The notes under the pieces were generated by a model. The model searched no databases, was not told the origin of the DNA, and worked only from the letters and a program-made list of their open reading frames with translations. DNA of 61,606 bases, counting the filler, from Circinaria calcarea (taxonomy: Eukaryota), in NCBI GenBank assembly GCA_051942165.1. It is 16 parts of 16 records of this genome, joined end to end, with 100 filler letters (N's around TTAATTAATTAA, not from the genome) between each part and the next. Parts side by side here need not be neighbours in the genome. Positions count along the whole stretch, not along the records: positions 23,229 to 26,992 come from JAVECS010002636.1; 15 more parts are not named here. One strand, given 5' to 3'. Positions within the stretch are counted from its first letter, which is position 1. Each line of letters opens with the position of its first letter. Shown one piece after another: positions 19,843 to 49,300 of the stretch. The translations under genes and the position numbers were made by a program.

Positions 19843-21162
19843 TTCGTGACTCCTCCGAAGCCACACTCTGATGCTCCAAATCGGTTTGGAAGCTGAAGTC
19901 GCTAATTTGAGGACACCCAAATGAGCGCTGGTGGTTAAGGTGCTGACCTTTAGTCTTGTTATCGGGGTAGACATTTCTCTTGGAAGATGGACTGGAATGG
20001 AATTTGCTAAAATGGCTTCGAATATATTCGATAGATTGAGGACGTAGGAGGGGTCGTATTGTTGGAATACAAGCCGCAATGATAGCGACGTTCTGTTCCA
20101 CTCTGGCAATCCGTTAGCTGGTCTTGTTATATATTCTCAGAACGAGGTGGGTGAGAGATACGTAGCCCAAATACTTAAGCGTATTATGTTATCTGACCAC
20201 AAATGATTAACATAGCACTTGGGAGTACGTTCTGCCAGAAGTTGGAGATGGGACATACAGGTGATATCCTTGGTTGGGAGGTGGATGAGAAATACAGTTC
20301 TAGCCAGGGCGAATGCGCCAGTACTGTGACCGAATTCTTAGAGTGCGTTTGATGGCTGCAATTAGGGCAAATACTCACACAACGCCTAGTCCCATGAGAC
20401 AGCATATTCCAGCTTTAATCCGGATGCTGATCTGAACATTCCACAAAAAGACAGCAGGCAAAGCTGCAAGCGCCCAATCACAGAACATTGACGCGGCTTC
20501 ATTCAGAAGTTAGTTACAATGTCAAGTTCACACAAAGGCGTGTAAGAAAGGGAGAATCATACCAGCCTGCGAAACGTTAATAACGGTTTGTATGATGGGA
20601 GCTCTGCAGCTGCCTGGAACGGCCGGGTTCCAATACTTCTCGGCCGGACGACAAGAATTTAGAACTGTAGTCGCTGCGATCAAGCTAGTAACAATATTGA
20701 AGCCAGTGATAAGATGAAGAGTCCATCTCCATGAGTTCCGTGTCGTGAAGAGACGGAGGAGGAAAACATAGATGGAGGCTCTCGTGAACATGGTTGAGAG
20801 AATGGAGAATACATCGGCTATCAGGTTCCACTTGATCGATTGTATGATATTTTCTGGTGGCACGTAGTACACATGTCTTCCGTTGCCTAAATGTACCAAA
20901 GCTATACTGATGCCCAACACAGTCAAGGCGCCGATCTAATGCCGTATATCAGCTTGGTTCTTATCAACAAACACTCATCTCATGGCCTTACCACTCCCAA
21001 TACTATGAGGAAGTCATCCCACCCTAAGCTGTTGCGAACTAGTTTCGTCCGGACAAAGAGTCTCAAGCAGACTAAACTGAAAGCTACGAAAAACGTAACT
21101 GCCGACACAGTAAGAAGAATGTAGCCTCGATTCTCATCGGGGGGAATAGTGGTGTCTGCCAT
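19778..21162 (-). CDS. PTH11-like rhodopsin-domain integral membrane protein (no CFEM), multi-exon
   Basis: LRLFVRTKLVRNSLGWDDFLI; GNGRH; RASIYVFLLRLF; SCRPAEKYWNPAVPGSC; EQNVAIIAACIPTIRPLL. Confidence 0.88.
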
Positions 21163-22573: not shown

Positions 22574-23432
22574 GCTAAACTTATAGTAGCAGCTTTAACT
22601 CCAATCGCGTCTCTTCACGAAAAAACAGCTGTCCGGACCAACCTTATCTTTATTTATTTCACCGCTGGTCCTGTTATTCAATCGCTGCTCTTACTCGGCA
22701 TCCGTTTCTGACATCAGCATTCAGTTCTAGCTCGAGCATTCATCTTTCGCTCCAGAATGCCTTCCTGATCCCTATTTCTATTTCTGGTTCGCGGGCCTGT
22801 CACGAATGAAGAAGATTTAACGTTACACAGCCCGAGCATTAGAAGGGCGGCTGATTGCTATTCGAATAATAAGAGAAACCTCTTTAGCACTAATATCGGC
22901 GCAACTCCTAGAATACAATTCAATTCCATACCAATCAAGCCATGAAAGAAAAAATGTTACGTGTTCCACGCAAAACCGTTCCGCGCACAACCAAAGGATT
23001 AATAGTTGCATATCCCTACTACTCTAAGCGACATAGCGCGCCGCAAAAATACTTTTAAAATCGTAATTTATTAATCTAGTTTATTATTATAAATAATTAA
23101 AATAATAAAAAACGGTAACAGCTAAATTNNNNNNNNNNNNNNNNNNNNNNNNNNNNNNNNNNNNNNNNNNNNTTAATTAATTAANNNNNNNNNNNNNNNN
23201 NNNNNNNNNNNNNNNNNNNNNNNNNNNNTTTTCCGTACCCCTTCCATTTCGTGTTCCCCTATATATCCGCCACAAAGACCTAGAGACAGATCCTCCCAAA
23301 CCGATATAAACCTGCAGCTGTCTAAATGCGACCCATAGAAATTCCCTTCCCCTAGATTAATACTTTCCAGCTCGGTTTGTGTTGCGCGTAGTGTACTGTG
23401 GTATTATGGACCCAAAAAAAGGGCCCCTTCCC

Positions 23433-23440
23433 AAAAAAAA
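23433..23440 (-). terminator. Pol III oligo-T terminator of the 5S gene
   Basis: Run of 8 T immediately after the 5S 3' end on the minus strand. Confidence 0.8.
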
Positions 23441-23562
23441 ACATACAACAGCTGAGTATTCGCCGGCGGTCACCCACCCAACTACTAATCAGCCGATCTC
23501 AACCTTATGGATGGCAGAGCGGGACGGGATGCCCAGTTCTTCTGGAGTCTGTGGTCGTATGT
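23441..23562 (-). rRNA. Dispersed 5S rRNA gene
   Basis: Reverse complement ACATACGACCACAGAC..GGCATCCCGTCCCGCTCTGCC..TTAGTAGTTGGGTGGGTGACCGCCGGCGAATACTCAGCTGTTGTATGT; termini pair (helix I); followed by a T-run; TATA-like ATATAT about 28 nt upstream. Confidence 0.93.
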
Positions 23563-23890
23563 GAGGAATAGATTCATATCAGGGGACATATATCAGTTAA
23601 TTTTCCTCCTGGATTTCGTGACGTGAGATAAGGGTCCGGGCTACGAGTAGGGATAAGAGTAAGATGGGTGGCTGGTTGGAGATTCTTGAGTTGATTAGCC
23701 TCTCTGGGTACATTTGCTAGGTGATTACCCAGTTGAAATACTTTAGGCTACTAAGTTTCGAAAGACCTGAGAGGATTTGAGGTTGACCATGGCATGGTAC
23801 TTCGTATACCGTATACGCCTGAGGGAATAGTGTCCTCGGCAAGATTCAGGCTGCACAGATAGGAAAAGGAGCAAAACTGGGACTCTCATC

Positions 23891-24041
23891 CAGGGCCGCC
23901 AGTAGTCCAGCAGTCCAAACTGAACTGGCAGTCCAGTACAGTATACTGGACCGAACTGGCAGTTCCAGTCCACCCTTCAGACTGCCAAGGCAGTTACAGT
24001 TCAGACGCTGAACTGCATTGTTTGGACTACTGGCGGCGCTG
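23891..24041. mobile_element. 151-bp MITE-like element with 19-bp TIRs (copy B, both ends present)
   Basis: Left CAGGGCCGCCAGTAGTCCA versus right TGGACTACTGGCGGCGCTG (1 mismatch); internal CAGTCCA/TGGAC/GAACTG mini-repeats; no 8-bp TSD seen. Confidence 0.8.
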
Positions 24042-24120
24042 GTGGTCACCCACCCAATTACTAGTTAGCCGATCTCAAGCTTATATATAGCAGAGCGGAC
24101 AGGATGCCCAGTGCTCTTAA
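24037..24120 (-). pseudogene. Partial, transition-mutated 5S rRNA copy fused to the MITE end
   Basis: GGTCACCCACCCAATTACTAGTTAGCCGATCTCAAGCTTATATATAGCAGAGCGGACAGGATGCCCAGT aligns with 23468-23537, mostly C>T/G>A changes; both 5S ends are missing. Confidence 0.85.
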
Positions 24121-24199
24121 CTTTTAATTTATGCTATTGGTTCTTTCCCTGCTTGTTATTGCTTATGTTATCATGGCGTTGCACGGGCTCAATATAATA

Positions 24200-25076
24200 T
24201 TATAGAAAGTATAAAACGGTATACCAAAACACAAAGATAAGAAAAATTCCATTCCAAGCCTTTAACCTGCTAGCAATGCTGGAAGACGCTGATGTAGTTA
24301 CAGTGACTGTTGCAATTGACTCCGCGGTTTTTGTAGGTGTAGATGTGACACTAGCTATGGGCGGCTGGGTAGTTGTTATTGATTTTGTAGGCAAATCGGT
24401 AGATGCTGTTGTAGATATATCAGCTTTACATTGATTTGATAGCGAAGGACGATAAACTACCTGCAAACTCGGACACTAGCACCGTGATGGTGGAAGCGCC
24501 TCCAGCGGTCGTGGAGGTGACAGAGGAAGCCGCTGATGACCCAGTATCGGAGATACAATTTCCCACGCAGAAGGGATTCTTGACATAATTGAAGGTCAAG
24601 ATACCATCGCTGGGACTGTTGCTACCCTCGTCCACAAAATGAATAGGAACACTGCCGCAGGTCGTACAGCCATGTTTCAGAACGGCGTCTGTCAGCGGAC
24701 GGATCTGCCCCAAGGTAAGAGCGGTGCCTTGCGGGAAAAGACAGATGCCGCCTTCCTTGATACTGCCGCTCAGGCTAAAGGTGACGCCCAAGCCACCGAT
24801 ATCGGGCCCTATCCCGATAGTGATGGGCTGCGACTGGGATACGCAGATGATATGATCGCCACTGTTGTAATTGGTAGTATTGGGAAATGTCGAGTTCCAG
24901 ACCGCGTCCCTGAGGACCTGGATCACGGATTCCGAGGCTGCGTTGTTCCACGTCGCACGTGGGCACAGGCCGGATCCACGACAGTTGATGCCGAGGGTGG
25001 AGACACGGCCAACATGAATGATGGTGATGGCAAGAATGCGGGACACGGGAGAACGAAAGAATAAACCTGTTATCAT
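24200..25076 (-). CDS. KP4 killer-toxin-like protein with Ser/Thr stalk and GPI-type C-terminus, 2 exons (25076-24461, 24405-24200), 273 aa
   Basis: Signal peptide then LGINCRGSGLC..HGCTTCGSVP..GILTFNYV (KP4 hallmarks, 8 Cys). Intron 24460-24406 (GTAGTT..GCTGAT..ACAG) joins in frame to STDLPTKSITTTQPP..SSSIASRLKAWNGIFLIFVFWYTVLYFL*. Confidence 0.85.
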
Positions 25077-25374
25077 TGCGGAATCTTGATTCTTGAATAG
25101 CTAAGATGCCGTGGGCTGTACCATGAATAATAAGAATATCGCTACAAGGCTACAGAATTGTATCAAAACAAATTATTATCGTCGGGTTATGGTACACTGC
25201 ATAAAAAGTCACAGTAATAATTCAATGGCGCGGAGCGACATGAATAGAGCGTGTGTTTTGCTCTATATCTCAGCGGAAATTTACAAATTTGTACCCCAAG
25301 GCAGAAATAGTGGCTTCACCAGCCTAAGAACAGTGATCTATATAGAAGCTTTTATCGCATATTCGCTGTAATAT

Positions 25375-25505
25375 GCCACTGTCGTATAGCAGGGCACTGG
25401 CGCAAGGGTATTGGCGCAAGGGCACTGTCGTGATGTTGTTGGCGTAATATGACCTTCCACGACAGCGAACCTTTACGACAGTGACCTTTTCACGACAGCG
25501 AGCAA
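25375..25505. repeat. Fold-back cluster of short direct and inverted repeats
   Basis: CACTGTCGT twice and TGGCGCAAGGG twice on the left; ACGACAG[C/T]G three times (inverse of CACTGTCGT) on the right. Confidence 0.6.
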
Positions 25506-25716
25506 TATGCGATACGGTATACAGCCATTAAGCTCGAGCCGAAGGCCCCCTGGCAATAGTGCTCTCGCTAGGCTATTCCCGAGGTGGGGTATAAATTTGT
25601 AAATTTCCGGTATCTCAGCCATCCCCTGATTGTTATCCCATATACACACAAGGCGTTTCCCTCTCTCGCTGGCGCTCATTCGGGAGGTAGGCTTCGCTAC
25701 CGCGTGGTATTATATA

Positions 25717-26066
25717 AAATCCCCAGCTTTAATTGCTCTTTCAATTTTCAACGAAATTTTAATAATAGAAGCTCAGATTGTAGTGCTGAATAGGTGCTTT
25801 CGAATGCCGTTTTGTTTGCTAAATTCGGTAGTGGAAATAAAATCATATTTCACTGCGAATATGACGGTGGAAAACATAATATACGTGCTTCCACTTTGCG
25901 AATACTACGCGAAAACTACATGGAATCCCCACCTTTAATTTTTCCATCGATTTTCAATAGAATTGCGTGTATAGAAGCTCATATTAATGCGCTGAATGAG
26001 CGCTTTCAAACGCCGTTTCATTTTCTAAAATCGGTAGCGTAGAAAAAATCATATTCAACTGCGAAA
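25717..26066. repeat. Diverged direct repeat, period 206 bp
   Basis: AATCCCC..CTTTAATT, GAAGCTCA (25768 and 25974) and AAATCATATT..ACTGCGAA each recur at 206-bp spacing. Confidence 0.75.
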
Positions 26067-26293
26067 ACTATTGTATGCGTGGCGGAATGATTCGCGAAAT
26101 CCACTGCAGCGCTGCCAGACATATTATTCCCCGGATCAAATTATTCTACGAATAACGCCTCAAAATGCGATATTGAAACGGTTATTTTATCGTTGCATTC
26201 AGCTCTATTTAATGCCGTTTTAATATTAAAAATCCGTCGGTGGCGCATGGAGTAATATCGCTGCGAAATGGTGGGTGATAGTAAATTGATTCT

Positions 26294-26835
26294 TCACGTG
26301 ATCTGGGGTTTTCAGCTGGACCCTTTAAAATTTTAATATACCCTTCCGTCTTGCTCCCACGCATACCTATATATTCAATGCGATATAAGTATTGCGCCTG
26401 CCTATGGATTTTTGATAATAAGGGCTCATATTAATCCTTAAATCAAGCCCTTTAACTTGGGTCTTCATTCTTTAAAAGTTATTGATTTTTGGTGAGTGCA
26501 TCGAGACTGTAAATGCGGATTGCCTTGGGGATCGAGTTTTGAAGTTCCTCACGTGATCTGTGTTTTCCAGCTGGACCCTTTAAAATTTTAACGTACCCTT
26601 CCGCCTTGCTCTCACGCATACCTATATATTCGATGCGACATGACTATTGCGCCTCCTGATAGATTCTTATAAATAAGGGCTTATTTTGATCGCTGAATCA
26701 AGCTCTTTAATTTGGGTCCCCATTTTTCAAAAGTTATTGATTTTTCGTGAGTGCATCGAAACTGTAAGTGCGGACTGCTTTGGGGATCGAGTTTTGAAGT
26801 TCCTCACGTGATCTGGGTTTTCCAGCTGGACCCTT
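26294..26835. repeat. Tandem repeat, 255-bp unit, about 2.1 copies
   Basis: TCACGTGATCTG..CAGCTGGACCCTTT starts at 26294, 26549 and 26804; units are collinear throughout with scattered substitutions. Confidence 0.92.
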
Positions 26836-27092
26836 TGTTACTCTTGGCACTTATTATTTTGTTACTTCTAATAGGAAGGAGGTGCATTACAAGGAGGGCG
26901 CTACGTCTTCAACAAACTGCACGGTATGAACCGGAATATATATATGGATAAGTGTTACTGAAATACTATGTTGATATTATGAAATACTATGTNNNNNNNN
27001 NNNNNNNNNNNNNNNNNNNNNNNNNNNNNNNNNNNNTTAATTAATTAANNNNNNNNNNNNNNNNNNNNNNNNNNNNNNNNNNNNNNNNNNNN

Positions 27093-28423
27093 AACGCTCG
27101 AGTGAATACTATACGCCTGAGTGACGTTAATGCCGTCGGGACTGGGGTTCTTGTCTTCTGATTCCTTTGGAGCCACATGCTCAGCATGCACCTGTGAGCT
27201 CGCCACCGCGTGACCTTCGACATGCGTGCCCAGCACGGATGAGAAGTTATCGTCGTGTAACCGGTGGAAATTCCGTGACTTTGTATTCTTCAAAGCCGGA
27301 CTCAAGCGCAGCGATTCTTCTTTCCGACATCCGGACCCGCTTCCTGAATTTCCCATAAGAGATTTGGCTCAGGAAAATACGGGCGAGTTGATTACCTGGG
27401 CGCCGGCTGGTCGCATGATTGGTAGGGAAGCGAGAACGATTCCCAGCAGCGGTTCCAGAGCGCTGAACAGATACAATAAACCAACGCTATAGGTGAAATC
27501 GTCACTTTCGAGACGTTGCCAGAAAGCGATGCGAAGGAGGGAAATCACGCAGATCCTTTAAATATATGTAAGCTCTATTGATTAAATTAGTGAACGTAGA
27601 ATCAGACTTACAATGTTCCGAGGCTAAATATGATAGATAACTCGATTTTCTTTCTCGTGGGCATTTGCAATCCCCAAAGAATGGGCATCGGTAAAATCGC
27701 CAGAGAAATATTGATTACAAAGGTGGCGGTATGGGCTACTATGTAGACAGATATTGTATTTCCACAACGACCTCCAGGAATGGTTTTATTCCAACTATAA
27801 CTCACAGGTTGGCAGATGAGAAATGCAACCAAGATATTATAGGCAAAGAAGAGGGCGCAGACCACCATGCCTCCATAGCAAACTTTGCGGAATTTGGGCG
27901 ATCGGAAGATGTTTATATAGAGATCGAGAATAGAAAGCTTCACCAAGGTGATTGATGAAATCCAAAGAGGTTGGATAGCCACAAAGGTCTGCACAACTAC
28001 TTAGCTCGATGATCTCAGGTAGACCATCACTCGGCCGGGCTCACTTTGCCGAAAACCATCAGCTTTCGAGGTTCGGTGATCACATCGAGGGTGTGCTGGC
28101 CGAGTCCTCCGGAAACCACCGCTGACGAGAAGGGACAGATTAGCCAGGTTCCAAATCTGAAGATATCAAGGCGACACTTACCTGTAATAATAATGGCAAC
28201 GAGAGCCGTTGAAACCGCCTACACGGTTGTCATTAAACAAGCATAGACTCGGCTTTCCTGATTCCCGTACCAATGCCAAGATAATGAGATAGTCGTTGGC
28301 AACGAGAGGCCGTTTCTTCAGGCGCAGAGACCATATCCGAAGTGCAACGGCGACCAATGCCAAAGCTTCGAATATAACACTGACTGTGACAAGCATGACT
28401 CCCTGGCCGTTGACTTGCTCCAA
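27093..28423 (-). CDS. Second PTH11-like rhodopsin-domain membrane protein, multi-exon, 3' truncated, start uncertain
   Basis: VALRIWSLRLKKRPLVANDYLII; GLGQH; VKLSILDLYINIF; LICQPVSYSWNKTIPGGRC; LPMPILWGLQMPTRKKIELSIIFSLG; LEPLLGIVLASLPIMRP. Confidence 0.85.
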
Positions 28424-36788: not shown

Positions 36789-38197
36789 ATGCTTGCCATG
36801 TATAACTTTAACTACATATCTATCCTCCTCCTTCCCGCCCTCATCGCTCAGACAGTATCCTTGAGTACTCCCACTCCGACCATCCAACCAGCCCTCCTCC
36901 AAACCTTCGACGGGGTAACCGCATCTCCTGACGAAGTACTTGACCTCCTTTATCCTCCGCATCCTTTACTTACTGATTGTGTTAGATATCCTCCGAACTT
37001 ATCGCATACAGCCGCCACATGACCCTTTTCGGTGCCTATGGCGCATTCACCCAGGACGTTGCTCATTTTGTAACCGGTCCTTGGCCCACCAACCCTCCAG
37101 CTGCTCTCTCCAGCCTCTACGCATCATGGACCGCCAACGATGAATACGTCCCGGATTTCTACACTGCCGCTGTTAGTTATTTTGAAAGTGTCACCAGGGT
37201 AAACGAGGCAATCAGTATGGGCTTGATCGGCCCGTCTCAGTTTTCCTTTGTTGTCTCTTACATATACACCCCTCCGCTACAACCCTCGAATTTTTTTCCG
37301 CCCGATGCTCTCCGAGAGAACATGGAAACTCCTACGACAGGCGCCGAAGGACCCATAAGCGAAGAAAGCGGTCTAGGTGTAACTGGTGTATTCACTACAA
37401 GTGGGTCGCCATTGTTTCCTACGAACGTACCCGACATCCTCACGTCCATCCCTGGGCTAGTACCAGTCTTTACGTCCGGGCAATCGCGGACCGGAGCCGA
37501 AGGAAGACATCCGACTGCACTCCCTGTTCTTGAGACTTGGGATCCCTTTGGCCATAATGAGCTTGATGTTAATGGCGGACAACCGTTGTCTCCTATCACG
37601 CCAGTCAGTACAGGGTCCGTTCCAGGGTTTGCATCTTTTACGACTGGGCAGGTGCAGACCAGAGGCGGAGAAGGAGATGTGAGTGCAATACCTGGAATTG
37701 GGGGTTCCCTTACCGGTACCGCCTTCACCATCATCGACGGGCCCTCGTCGTCCCCTATCGTCCAGCCTAGCACGATCGTAGAACCTGTACCCACTTTTAC
37801 TCCTGGCCAGGTGCAGACGCAAGGGCAGGAAGGAACTTCAAGCGGGGTTTTCTTCGTCGAAACCGGTGCAGGGTATACCATCTTTGATGCTCCTGACCTC
37901 ACGGCTCCGATTACGCTCTTGGACGGCACTAAGACTGAACGAACTCCTGGAGTACTAGTGACGCAGATGGTCACGGTTACGGTTAGTGTCTTAGCGAATA
38001 CGACGCAGACGACAGCCTCGTCTTCTGTCACCACCATCTCTTCAACTTTCACTTCTCCACTGGCCGCTACGACCTCCAGCTCAGCAGCAGGAGCACCGGC
38101 ACGAGGATTGAGACCGACGCATCCGAAGGTGATGTCGAGATTAAGGGCGGCGATAGTGGGATATACGGGGTTGATGCTTGGGTTTTGGATCGACTGA
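36789..38197 (+). CDS. Secreted Ser/Thr/Gly/Pro-rich, probably GPI-anchored cell-wall protein with internal repeats, 2 exons (intron 36936-36985)
   Basis: Signal peptide ..ISILLLPALIAQTVS; the intron keeps frame into ORF 37019..38197; FTxGQxxTxGxEG repeats; C-terminal SSAAGAPA..AAIVGYTGLMLGFWID. Confidence 0.75.
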
Positions 38198-45984: not shown

Positions 45985-46345
45985 GCGCTAGATGGCGGCC
46001 CATATTTACCTGCTTTGCTATGGCGTAGAGAGTTGGTTTTGTTAGCATGCCAGTGAGTCTTTAAGCCTTAATGAGGCAATGAATAGAATCAAGCAATTTC
46101 TATCACCTTTTTCCGATAATGCATGCACTTCCGTGATATATAACCCCTATAAAAAAAAAAGCCCCAAACAACATAACTTGATCTACCGGAGAAAAACCCC
46201 GGGGAGCTACCATCCCGCTACTCCCGCCACAAAAAGGGGGGGGGGNNNNNNNNNNNNNNNNNNNNNNNNNNNNNNNNNNNNNNNNNNNNTTAATTAATTA
46301 ANNNNNNNNNNNNNNNNNNNNNNNNNNNNNNNNNNNNNNNNNNNN

Positions 46346-49300
46346 TCTTCCTCTTCCTCTTCGTCGGATGAGTCTTCTGGCTCGGATCCAGGATCATCGG
46401 GAGGGTCATCATCGGCAGGCTGCTCAAGCGTTCGTTTTGACTTTTTGGCAAATGCTTTCTCTGCCGAGAGGAAAGTACTTGCAATAAGATCCTGTGCTTC
46501 TGACGGAACTTCTTGCACAAGATCTGCGCTAGAGGGACTGTCATTGGAGATGCCAGCTACTGGCTGCTTGAGGTGGCGGAAAGTGGCAAAAAGAGTATGT
46601 AGGTCGAGGAGAGTGCCAATGGCACAGAAACGAACATCGCCAAGCTTTGGTTCCGATTTAACGATCTCTAAAATGGAGGTAGAAAACCTTGTGTAGTCAG
46701 GAAGAGTCTCAATCTGCTCCCCGGCATCGAGCCTTGTTCTGAGCGAGCGCACTTTCCACATGTAGTAAAACAATAGAGACTTCATCGCACTTGTCAGTAG
46801 CAGCTGACTCTCTTGGCCCCAAGAACCAGAATACTTTTTCAAAAGTTCAAGTAACATATCGATCATATTCGTCCATGGAGGACCACCAATTATGGTGGCT
46901 CTCGCCCTCGAATGAGGCTCTGCTTCGAAAGTCTGCACACAGTCTGAAATGCTTGCCAGGTTCGAAATGCGCCGGACGGTATTGCAGAGATCTGTAAATT
47001 TATTCTCCATTTCCACCAGCATGAGCGACCTCAACGAGTATGTGGTTTCATCCCAGAGTTCTTGGACTTTGCTTTCAGTGACTTCTTCAAGCTCTTCAAA
47101 GCTACGTGCATGGAGCAAAGCCGTACTTGCTTCAGCAAGTACGTTATGATCGGCGTGCGTAAGGAATTGTTTGTTGATATCATCAAGGAGAGAAGCATAT
47201 TCGGTAGAGTCTTGTCGAAGTTCTTGAAAGATCTCTAGGTTCAGTACATGCTCTAAACGGAGTACTGCCGATGCTGTGACAGGATTCGCGCCGAATTTCC
47301 CAAGCAAACGAGGGATCGCTTGCGCGAGATGTAATGCCGTCGTCTCCTGGATTTCTCTAGATTCATCTTTTTTCGCCCTTGATTTTTTGCCTTTCTTGTC
47401 CATCTCCGATTCTACAGCGTCGGTTAATCGTAAGTTGACGGCTGTGTTGAGGATCTCGAGGAGGAGTCTCTCTTCTCTCTCGTTTGGTTGGCATCGTACC
47501 TTGAATGCCGTCAACGGGTCGTCTGGGGCATTGCTCTGTGTAGAACTTGAGTGGTCGTACAAAAGATAGCCGGCAAGAATCTCCCATTCCTTGATCTCGG
47601 GAACCCCTTCACAAATCGCTTGCGCGGCCATCGAATATCTTGAATCCACTCCCGATGCAACCAAAGTCCCTGTATCGGTTGTATCTTGCACATCACAATT
47701 ATCGTCACCACTTTCAGAGTCATAAGATCGCAAAACTTCCGCGAGGCACTTTAGTTTCAACCATGATTTCCGTGGGTTGTCATAGTCATCGTCGGCTTCT
47801 TCGCCAAGTGCTTCATCCAAAACATCCTCCCCACCGAGCTCTTCCGCCATGGCTTCAAACATGTCGTTTATATTCTCCGCAAAGAATCCTGCAACAGCTT
47901 TTCGTACACGAGGCTCGTTATCGAAGATGAGTTTGCCAACAGTATCTACATCATCCGGTTCAAGAAGTCCAACACTTCGAATCAGATCTAGTAATTCGAT
48001 AGCAGATGCTCTAATGGTGGACTCTGCATCCCGTGCCGCCATTTCAACCATTCTTGGGCGGAACCGCTCTGTGAAGGCGCGTAATCGTCCGACATTATCC
48101 TTATTCTTGTAGAGTTTCAGAAGTTGCTTGAGTACTTCTGCTCTAGTTTGTGACGAGGTATCTGAGAGCACCCAGCCCAGGTACCGGAGGTATTGACCCT
48201 CAAAGAATATGTCTGGACAAGTTGAAATCCAAGTACCAAGTGCAGCGGAACAATCTACTCGGATCCGCGGATCCACGTCTCGATAGCGATGGACGAATAC
48301 GGTGTCGAATACATCCCTCAGCCAACTCTCAACGAATTCTCGTTTTTTCTCGGTCTCTTTGATCTTCGCCTCGAGAATAGCCACGAGCTCTTTGTTTACG
48401 CGTTTCTTCTTCCGCTCACCATCCCTCTGCCTAATTGTCGTAGCTGTTTCGTTAGTAATGACCTTCATCACATCGCACAACGCACTAGCCATGGATAATG
48501 AAACCACAGTAGCAGTGTGTCTGAAAGGTCGTATTCCCGAAGATGACATTGTTGTAACCCATACTTGAATATTTTCAATCAAAGCCAAGTCTGCGTAGAG
48601 GATACCGGAGGCGTGAGCAGTTTCGACCAAGGAAGCGAAGAACGAGGTCATAATCGCCCGAGAAAAAGTGCTACTCCTGGCCTTCAAGATGAGTGGATAG
48701 TCTGTGATCTTCTGTGCTTGATATTCGTCTTGCAAATCCTGCAGTTTGCTGGTTACGTTATCAGGATCTTCAATGTCATGGATGGTAACTTGTAAATCGC
48801 ATCCAGTACATTTAAGGACGAAGTTGACTAGTTCGCACATGGCATTGGCGTTGTGGCCATCGTATCGCGAGATCCATTCTGCCGCTACGTTGTCTGTGGT
48901 ATGTCCTTGCGAGAAGATTTCCCCTGATTCCATTAGCCATTCCCTCGCCTCAGGCTTTACCATGTCAAGTCTAACCGTAGAGACCGCTGTCCTCGGATCC
49001 TTCATCCGCTGTATCAGTGTTTTGTCGCGCGCGTGGTTTCCTTGGCTTCGGAGTCTTCTTGACCCCGTTCGTTGCGGGGCGCATAGGCAATTTCATGGCG
49101 GTGTTCGTCACTGTTTTTGACCTTTTCGCGGCTGGCTTCTTTGGTGTCGGCTTCAACTTTGAGGCTTTCTTTCTCTTTTCTTTTAACTCCTCTTCGTCTG
49201 GATCTCCTTCACTTTCGTCCGGGCTGCTCTCTTCTACGTCCTCATCTTCCAGCTCGACCTCTACAGTCACAGCGCGTTTTCGTTTCCCATTACCATTGCT

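What the first reader, a model, noticed from the sequence alone, without database searches (positions are those of the whole stretch)
24200..25076. KP4 killer-toxin-like domain on a Ser/Thr stalk with a GPI-type anchor: a candidate surface-tethered KP4
Seen: signal peptide, KP4 motifs (LGINCRGS..C, HGC..CGS.P, G.LT.NYV, 8 Cys) and a canonical 55-nt intron that the ORF track misses. Splicing adds a ~75-aa Ser/Thr-rich stalk and a hydrophobic tail (SSSIAS..WNGIFLIFVFWYTVLYFL). Known: Ustilago maydis virus KP4 is a small diffusible antifungal toxin acting on Ca2+ uptake, and fungal KP4-like genes are mostly small secreted proteins or fusions to other secreted domains. Inference: a wall- or membrane-displayed version could act in contact-dependent antagonism, or as a decoy, adhesin or partner-signalling protein. 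The gene lies between a MITE/5S relic and a repeat array, as effector loci often do. I cannot confirm novelty without a search.
Basis: partly seen in the sequence, partly recalled or inferred. Interest (0 to 1): 0.8.

Follow-up and report, generated by a model that had tools for sequence, protein, structure and literature searches.

The report
Surface-anchored KP4-like protein, lichen fungus
A lichen-forming fungus carries a real, spliced gene that puts a domain shaped like the antifungal killer toxin KP4 on a short sugar-coated stalk with a cell-surface anchor signal, a design shared by a branch of fungal relatives and whose job is still untested.

Summary
Confirmed. The minus-strand gene has two exons (25076-24461, 24405-24200) and encodes 273 aa. 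It scores Pfam Kp4 E 7e-23 and models on KP4 1kpt at Z 14.7, rmsd 1.8. One RNA contig from a relative skips exactly the 55-nt intron. The exon-2 tail fits a published GPI consensus; the unspliced ORF does not. No GPI or signal-peptide predictor was available.

The design is not unique: 16 of 116 classified close homologues have it. In a domain-only tree, 18 anchored-type rows form a clade (96/92) covering lichen fungi, Xylariales and Penicillium. Public names say only 'killer toxin' or 'hypothetical', and my paper searches found no anchored KP4.

New here: the subfamily carries a 25-70-residue Gly/Ser/Thr-rich, alternating hairpin insert absent from KP4, and lacks KP4's basic patch.

Function is untested. 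Most likely it is a wall-displayed contact or binding protein; a shed toxin is the main rival. Two mobile elements lie just upstream, and a 94%-identical second copy is frameshifted. Verdict: new variant of a known family.

The parts
24461..25076 (-). Exon 1: putative signal peptide (aa 1-27), KP4 domain (aa 28-174), first 31 aa of S/T stalk
24996..25076 (-). Putative signal peptide; ends just before LGINCRGS, which aligns to residue 1 of mature KP4
   Evidence: alignment; hydropathy; no predictor run
24555..24995 (-). KP4-fold domain, 8 Cys, net charge -2
   Evidence: Pfam E 7e-23; 1kpt Z 14.7, rmsd 1.8 over 103 residues
24744..24842 (-). 33-residue loop between C78 and C112: Gly/Ser/Thr-rich insert with alternating hydrophobic residues (4-10 residues in 8 ordinary paralogues; 6 in KP4)
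   Evidence: low pLDDT at 85-104
24406..24460 (-). 55-nt GT-AG intron, phase 1
   Evidence: sequence; RNA contig of a relative skips it; 55 of 55 nt identical in the second copy
24200..24405 (-). Exon 2: ~40 more S/T stalk residues, candidate omega sites 26-30 residues from the end, short basic spacer, hydrophobic tail reaching the stop
25274..25609 (.). MITE-like insertion ~200 bp upstream of the ATG; 37-nt terminal inverted repeats, 8-nt flanking duplication; absent from the second copy
   Evidence: only one other partial match found in the genome
25649..26870 (.). ~1.2-kb multi-copy repeat insertion containing the 255-nt tandem unit; absent from the second copy
24037..24115 (-). 5S rRNA fragment (85% to the intact copy over 80 nt) directly downstream of the gene
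23890..24042 (.). Small inverted-repeat element (20-nt arms), multi-copy, abutting the 5S fragment
23440..23562 (-). Intact dispersed 5S rRNA gene
   Evidence: Rfam RF00001, 58.6 bits

Best explanation
The gene encodes a GPI-type surface protein. SHOWN: spliced two-exon structure (in a relative), KP4 fold (model), S/T stalk, tail matching the GPI consensus, conservation of this design in one clade. INFERRED (about 0.85): it enters the ER, swaps its tail for a GPI anchor, is O-glycosylated on the stalk and ends in the wall rather than the membrane (S/T-rich, no basic residue just before the candidate omega sites, Val at omega-4/-5). INFERRED, weaker (about 0.4 overall): the KP4 domain works in place as a binding head, in the manner of a short adhesin or lectin, that grips wall components of cells the hypha touches (photobiont, rival fungi, own hyphae), rather than as a diffusible calcium-uptake toxin. 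The hairpin insert would form part of the binding or self-association surface.
For: Head-stalk-anchor order with 33 of 71 stalk residues S/T. Four omega candidates under the consensus quoted in bioRxiv 10.1101/132464 (passage; test); wall-versus-membrane rules from PMC4454578 (passage). The consensus is met by 11 of 16 and 8 of 10 tailed homologues versus 7 of 104 others. After KP4 and Zt-KP4 the nearest folds are glycan binders or their relatives: Y3 Z 5.0, DUF26 4.7, LDL 4.3, Gnk2 3.4; PMC13211469 section 37 says Y3, LDL and Gnk-2 bind carbohydrate. Stalks carry Val/Thr-rich segments, repeated in Penicillium and Xylariales members; RNA contigs of the relative step back about 81 nt at the same segment, suggesting a tandem repeat. 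No dibasic site in 12 of 13 stalks printed. KP4's Arg-Arg-x-Lys stretch is replaced by GDHIIC-type sequence; only 2 of 117 have K/R there.
Against: No ligand, location or activity was tested. The lectin Z-scores are all in the range the tool calls uninformative. All KP4-Pfam proteins with reported activity in the passages read act on growth or calcium. The stalk is short for an adhesin (recalled). Soluble relatives share the same acidic domain (median pI 4.5 against 4.6), the same insert and the same loss of the basic patch, so the head does not look specially adapted to tethering. The signal peptide is atypical. The tailed set was chosen for hydrophobic ends, so its consensus match is partly circular. 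RNA support is one low-depth contig from a relative, with no matching DNA run.
Confidence: 0.4

Rival explanations
1. Wall-stored toxin or effector: the anchor keeps a KP4-type growth inhibitor at the hyphal surface, and it acts at contact zones or after shedding by phospholipase, protease or wall turnover, disturbing calcium balance in a competitor or the alga.
For: Clear KP4 fold. KP4-like genes are induced on contact: Fusarium (PMC9506348 passage), Podospora non-self 42.8-fold (PMC3689799 table), Cladonia with its alga about 150-fold (PMC6652019 table and supplement 10); Xanthoria has 47 KP4-like-cluster proteins, 18 up in thalli (bioRxiv 2024.08.16.608140 passage). The genome has 17 Kp4 matches.
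Against: None of those genes is known to be anchored. Basic patch lost (its importance for KP4, K42, is recalled and my search for it found nothing). No dibasic release site in 12 of 13 stalks. A ~70-residue stalk (roughly 15-20 nm, recalled rule of thumb) cannot reach through a neighbour's wall unless shed.
Confidence: 0.3
2. Membrane-inserting variant: the long insert is a pre-stem hairpin that, after oligomerisation, forms a beta-barrel pore; anchored members concentrate it at the interface.
For: Insert 25-70 aa (median 34), 45% Gly+Ser+Thr, almost no K/R; period-2 alternation p<=0.05 in 83 of 117 homologues against 0 of 116 in each of two flanking control windows; poorly ordered in both monomer models. 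PMC12691639 describes the aerolysin-type insertion loop as 25 aa, alternating, S/T-rich (passage); related alpha/beta-sandwich toxins VVA2 and Cyt are thought to form beta-barrel pores.
Against: Any exposed beta-hairpin alternates, and the control windows are largely helical, so the test is lenient; the 117 sequences are related. Insert length varies widely. A wall tether would hinder ring assembly on a target membrane. No oligomer model could be obtained.
Confidence: 0.12
3. Self-directed role: a decoy or immunity factor against incoming KP4-type proteins, or a modulator of the fungus's own tip calcium and wall growth.
For: An anchored protein can reach its own cell surface. KP4 immunity is said to be genome-encoded (PMC12691639 passage); moss KP4 alters its own calcium gradients (PMC12382754 passage). 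Only this gene and its copy, of 13 own-genome KP4 loci examined, have an anchor frame.
Against: No data link it to immunity; patchy distribution argues against a core growth role.
Confidence: 0.1
4. The family design is real but this copy is silent or decaying.
For: Two insertions about 200 and 570 bp upstream of the ATG; the second copy is frameshifted in exon 1; no RNA run holds near-identical sequence (best word share 0.09).
Against: Frame, Cys, splice sites and tail are intact; relatives' RNA contigs lie on 24 of 30 bins in run X1; absence of a matching run reflects sampling.
Confidence: 0.08

Closest known systems
UmV-KP4 killer toxin (PDB 1kpt) and fungal KP4-like proteins, Pfam PF09044 (structural Group 1 of de Guillen et al., PMC12382754)
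   Same: Pfam match above cut-off; same fold over 103 of 105 residues; same mature N-terminus and C-terminal motifs.
   Different: 273 aa with stalk and anchor signal; 33-residue loop where KP4 has 6; no Arg-Arg-x-Lys patch; acidic domain; an extra C-terminal Cys pair.
Soluble long-loop KP4-like proteins of lichen fungi and Xylariales (most hits); possibly Cladonia grayi CLAGR_010764
   Same: Same domain and insert, 44-66% identity in alignment A1. The Cladonia protein is 192 aa, the typical size of this group; its sequence was not seen, so membership is inferred from length only.
   Different: End shortly after the domain or in a basic tail (33 short and 51 basic of 116 classified).
GPI-anchored fungal wall proteins with a Cys-rich head (CFEM proteins, Epa/Flo/Als adhesins; architecture recalled)
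   Same: Head, S/T stalk, omega site, hydrophobic tail.
   Different: Unrelated head fold; much shorter stalk than classical adhesins (recalled).
Y3, LDL and ginkbilobin-2 lectins; DUF26 receptor ectodomains
   Same: Distantly similar alpha/beta sandwich (Z 3.4-5.0); DUF26 proteins display this fold on a cell surface.
   Different: 7-15% identity; binding pocket not tested.

Membership tests
KP4 family (PF09044) | Pfam Kp4 score above curated cut-off | tested here: met
   81.5 bits vs 27.8
KP4 family (PF09044) | KP4 alpha/beta sandwich fold | tested here: met
   Model vs 1kpt: Foldseek E 5.7e-7; Z 14.7, rmsd 1.8, 103 aligned
KP4 family (PF09044) | Pattern of four Cys, three Gly, two aromatic motifs (as worded in PMC12382754 section 13) | tested here: inconclusive
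   Invariant C112, C137, C140, C170, G109, G110, G141, G158, F114, Y164 in 61 rows fit in kind; positions could not be mapped to the original definition (Brown 2011 not read)
KP4 killer toxins (functional class) | Small, freely secreted protein | tested here: not met
   Spliced product 273 aa with anchor-type tail
KP4 killer toxins (functional class) | Basic stretch around K42 (role recalled, not found in print) | tested here: not met
   KP4 GERRAKVC corresponds to GDHIIC; K/R in 2 of 117
KP4 killer toxins (functional class) | Calcium-reversible growth inhibition | not testable with these tools
   Needs assay
Fungal GPI-anchored proteins | N-terminal signal peptide | tested here: inconclusive
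   Hydrophobic stretch 1.84, several basic residues; cleavage before LGINC inferred from KP4; no predictor
Fungal GPI-anchored proteins | C-terminal omega consensus and hydrophobic tail with no cytosolic extension | tested here: met
   Four candidate sites, 26-30 from the end; unspliced ORF has none
Fungal GPI-anchored proteins | S/T-rich region before omega (wall type) | tested here: met
   33 of 71; rule
Fungal GPI-anchored proteins | No internal transmembrane helix | not tested
   No topology predictor; model shows a compact KP4 domain
Fungal GPI-anchored proteins | Covalent GPI attachment and surface location | not testable with these tools
   Needs PI-PLC or HF-pyridine release
Fungal adhesins/lectins | Tandem repeats in the stalk | tested here: inconclusive
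   None in this copy; seen in homologues and hinted in a relative's RNA contigs
Fungal adhesins/lectins | Ligand binding by the head | not testable with these tools
   Fold likeness to lectins is weak
Aerolysin-type beta pore-forming toxins | Alternating, S/T-rich insertion loop between two strands | tested here: met
   description
Aerolysin-type beta pore-forming toxins | Five-strand aerolysin core | tested here: inconclusive
   Both models match KP4 first; the core is accounted for by the KP4 fold
Aerolysin-type beta pore-forming toxins | Ring oligomer and pore | not tested

The most novel reading that the evidence does not exclude
A long-loop KP4 subfamily, expanded in lichen fungi and Xylariales, has gained a membrane-inserting hairpin, and an old anchored branch of it displays this head on the hyphal wall to act only on cells it touches: a contact-restricted weapon against rivals, or a tool to control or tap the algal partner at the lichen interface.
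Probability: 0.12. Interest if true: 0.85.

Novelty: new variant of a known kind. Interest (0 to 1): 0.52.

Why it matters
KP4-like proteins are treated as diffusible antifungal effectors, and secretome pipelines may drop GPI-anchored proteins (as PMC3320895 did), so an anchored branch would be overlooked. KP4-like genes are among the most strongly induced lichen genes on algal contact with no known mechanism. An anchored member and its soluble sisters share one head, which gives a direct way to test whether that head binds, poisons or perforates the partner. KP4's own molecular target is still unresolved.

Tried and rejected
Chance ORF or mis-called intron: rejected; of three frame-keeping GT-AG options with a branch-like site (52, 55, 151 nt) only 55 matches the RNA joint. 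Uniqueness to this genome: rejected. Single origin of all anchored forms: rejected, p-AU 0.0026 for 21 against 28 rows, with long branches in play. Neighbouring genes as context: the rhodopsin-domain ORFs near 20500 and 27700 lie on other contigs. Metagenome contig search for intron comparison gave 1 distant locus (30%) from 147 candidates and was no use. RNA runs: all 8 listed had word shares of 0.05-0.09, so no habitat is claimed; runs X2, X4 and X6 showed no joint at the intron and no cover of exon 2, which proves nothing. No pore-forming toxin appeared in the fold searches; the loop was poorly modelled, so this is not exclusion. The second model (soluble homologue P0104) was weak, pLDDT 63. 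The Atlas search gave only Kp4 clusters under 0.9. A search for K42 in print found three unrelated papers. Earlier scan notes: two unrelated GPI-protein notes, nothing by sequence or place.

Full report
**1. Observation.** The gene is on the minus strand. Exon 1 (25076-24461) gives 205 codons plus one base. A 55-nt GT-AG intron follows, and exon 2 (24405-24200) gives a split codon plus 67 residues: 273 aa in all. Exon 1 matches Pfam Kp4 at E 7.1e-23, residues 16-166. In 1 of 4 RNA runs laid at 80% likeness, one contig of depth 2.9 joins 24405 to 24461, skipping 55 nt with CT..AC ends and 41 letters on the short side. It comes from a relative (16 differences over 118 nt) and there is no DNA control, so it supports the intron but does not show expression of this copy. 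Other contigs of that run cover the stop and 3' end (24116-24271, 4 differences) and the 5' side to 25245. The exon-2 tail matches the GPI consensus quoted in bioRxiv 10.1101/132464 (passage) at four sites; the unspliced 216-aa ORF does not. No signal-peptide or GPI predictor was available.

**2. Organism and context.** The window is a chain of ~3.8-kb contigs joined by spacers; the gene's contig spans 23229-26992. A cohesin gene on another contig of the window has its best hit at 98% to Circinaria calcarea, with Xylographa and Trapelia at 67-70%, so the source is most likely a crustose lichen fungus of that group. The genome has 17 Kp4 matches. Of 13 of these loci examined, only this gene and one copy have an anchor-type frame downstream. 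That copy (contig C3061) is 94.0% identical over 2001 columns, keeps the intron (55 of 55) and tail, and is frameshifted in exon 1 near window 24910. It lacks two elements found upstream of the window copy: a 336-bp MITE with 37-nt inverted ends and an 8-nt flanking duplication, and a ~1.2-kb multi-copy repeat. Whether it is a paralogue or another strain's allele is open.

**3. Relatives.** The homologue search found 183 proteins and listed 120. Four could not be classified; of the other 116, 16 have a long S/T tail with a hydrophobic end, 7 an S/T tail without it, 51 a basic tail, 33 a short tail and 9 other. Named tailed members are from Trapelia, several Xylariales and Penicillium. A profile search added 10 tailed proteins among 136 new representatives, including Ramalina, Elasticomyces, Bisporella and Peltaster. 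The nearest relatives P0003 and P0004 stop just after the residue where this gene's intron begins, like unspliced calls, and Trapelia P0005 continues into a similar tail; intron conservation is inferred from that, not seen in DNA.

Trees used the domain only, so tails could not drive them. The quick tree of 108 rows put all 13 included tailed rows and 7 of 8 S/T-only rows in one 22-row group (SH-aLRT 92; three tailed proteins lacked the N-terminal motif and were left out). A careful tree of 49 hand-picked rows gave a clade of 18 anchored-type rows at 96/92 with none of 28 soluble rows inside. Three divergent tailed proteins fell outside, P0136 was dropped, and one origin for all was rejected (p-AU 0.0026, long branches). 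So anchoring is an old, maintained trait of one branch and probably arose more than once.

**4. The head.** The model (pLDDT 73) matches KP4 1kpt (Foldseek E 5.7e-7; Z 14.7, rmsd 1.8 over 103 residues). Next come Zt-KP4 (6.0), Y3 (5.0), DUF26 (4.7), LDL (4.3) and Gnk2 (3.4), all weak. Two departures from KP4 are shared by anchored and soluble members. First, the loop after C78 is 33 residues, against 6 in KP4 and 4-10 in eight ordinary paralogues. Across 117 homologues the insert is 25-70 aa, 45% Gly/Ser/Thr, and alternates hydrophobic and small residues (p<=0.05 in 83 of 117; 0 of 116 in each flanking control). The controls are lenient and the sequences related. Second, KP4's Arg-Arg-Ala-Lys stretch is absent (2 of 117 have K/R there) and the domains are acidic.

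**5. Mechanism.** Secretion, GPI addition and wall display are inferred with fair confidence; the S/T content and omega-proximal residues fit the wall-type rules in PMC4454578 (passage). What the head does is open. I favour a binding role in place (0.4): the stalk is short, has no dibasic release site in 12 of 13 members printed, carries Val/Thr-rich segments that are repeated in some members, and the fold's relatives include lectins. A stored or shed toxin is close behind (0.3), since every tested KP4-Pfam protein in the passages read affects growth or calcium, and such genes are induced on contact. A pore-forming hairpin (0.12), a self-directed role (0.1) and a silent copy (0.08) remain.

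**6. Literature.** Searches for KP4 with GPI, KP4-like families, lichens, K42 (46) and hairpin or pore (52) showed no anchored or long-loop KP4 in their listings. Passages read: PMC12382754 (term search with no 'GPI' or 'anchor', plus section 13), PMC9506348 (no 'GPI' or 'anchor'), PMC12018790 (no 'GPI'), PMC13211469 (passages and section 37), PMC3320895, PMC12691639, PMC3689799, PMC6652019 (table and supplement 10; file 13 not searched), bioRxiv 2024.08.16.608140 (its supplements are closed). Brown 2011, Lu and Faris 2019 and Gage 2001 were seen only as references, and the supplements of PMC12382754 were not opened; any of these could mention tailed forms. Public names seen are 'killer toxin', 'Kp4 domain-containing' or 'hypothetical'.

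**7. Verdict.** A real gene, a member of the KP4 sequence and fold family, but not a classical soluble killer toxin. It belongs to an apparently undescribed anchored branch of an apparently undescribed long-loop subfamily. Putting a Cys-rich head on a GPI stalk is a common fungal design (own knowledge), which limits the surprise. New variant of a known kind; interest 0.52.

Noticed in passing
whole window, e.g. 23129-23228, 26993-27092: The window is separate ~3.8-kb contigs joined by N44-TTAATTAATTAA-N44 spacers; adjacency across spacers is artificial.
   Followed up: yes
L007 (G000:C597), ORF 850-1854 +: A KP4 paralogue with the reverse layout: a long S/T-rich stretch before the domain, which ends the protein.
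   Followed up: no
L001/L016/L017 (G000:C867), L003, L004, L005, L012, L013: KP4 family expansion with close pairs and decayed copies: L005 and L016 have in-frame stops; C867 holds more than one match; L003/L004/L005 and L012/L013 are near-duplicates.
   Followed up: partly
P0101: A long-loop KP4 homologue at 57% identity is recorded from the amoeba Planoprotostelium fungivorum, on a long branch among fungal rows: gene transfer from prey or contamination.
   Followed up: no
soluble homologues: 36 of 120 end in a recurring RRSAK/SAKF-type basic motif, possibly a Kex2-type processing site (the protease link is recalled).
   Followed up: partly
window 24459-24539, run X1: Contigs of a relative step back 81 nt (and 76 nt plus 5 letters) at the end of exon 1, in frame: probably a tandem repeat of a 27-residue stalk unit in that relative.
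   Followed up: partly
window 23890-24115: A 5S rRNA fragment directly abuts a small multi-copy inverted-repeat element; many 5S-like copies are dispersed in the genome.
   Followed up: partly
window 25649-26870: Multi-copy ~1.2-kb repeat with internal 255-nt and 149-nt direct repeats and no long ORF; class not determined.
   Followed up: partly
window 36986-38197 +: 403-residue open frame rich in Ser/Thr/Pro/Gly ending in a hydrophobic tail, another likely GPI surface protein, with a long open antisense frame.
   Followed up: no
window 20528-21162 - and 27608-28396 -: Two fungal rhodopsin-domain (PF20684) membrane-protein genes on neighbouring but unlinked contigs.
   Followed up: partly
window 46294-49092 -: Cohesin subunit (stromalin/Scc3) gene fragment, used for taxonomic placement.
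   Followed up: yes
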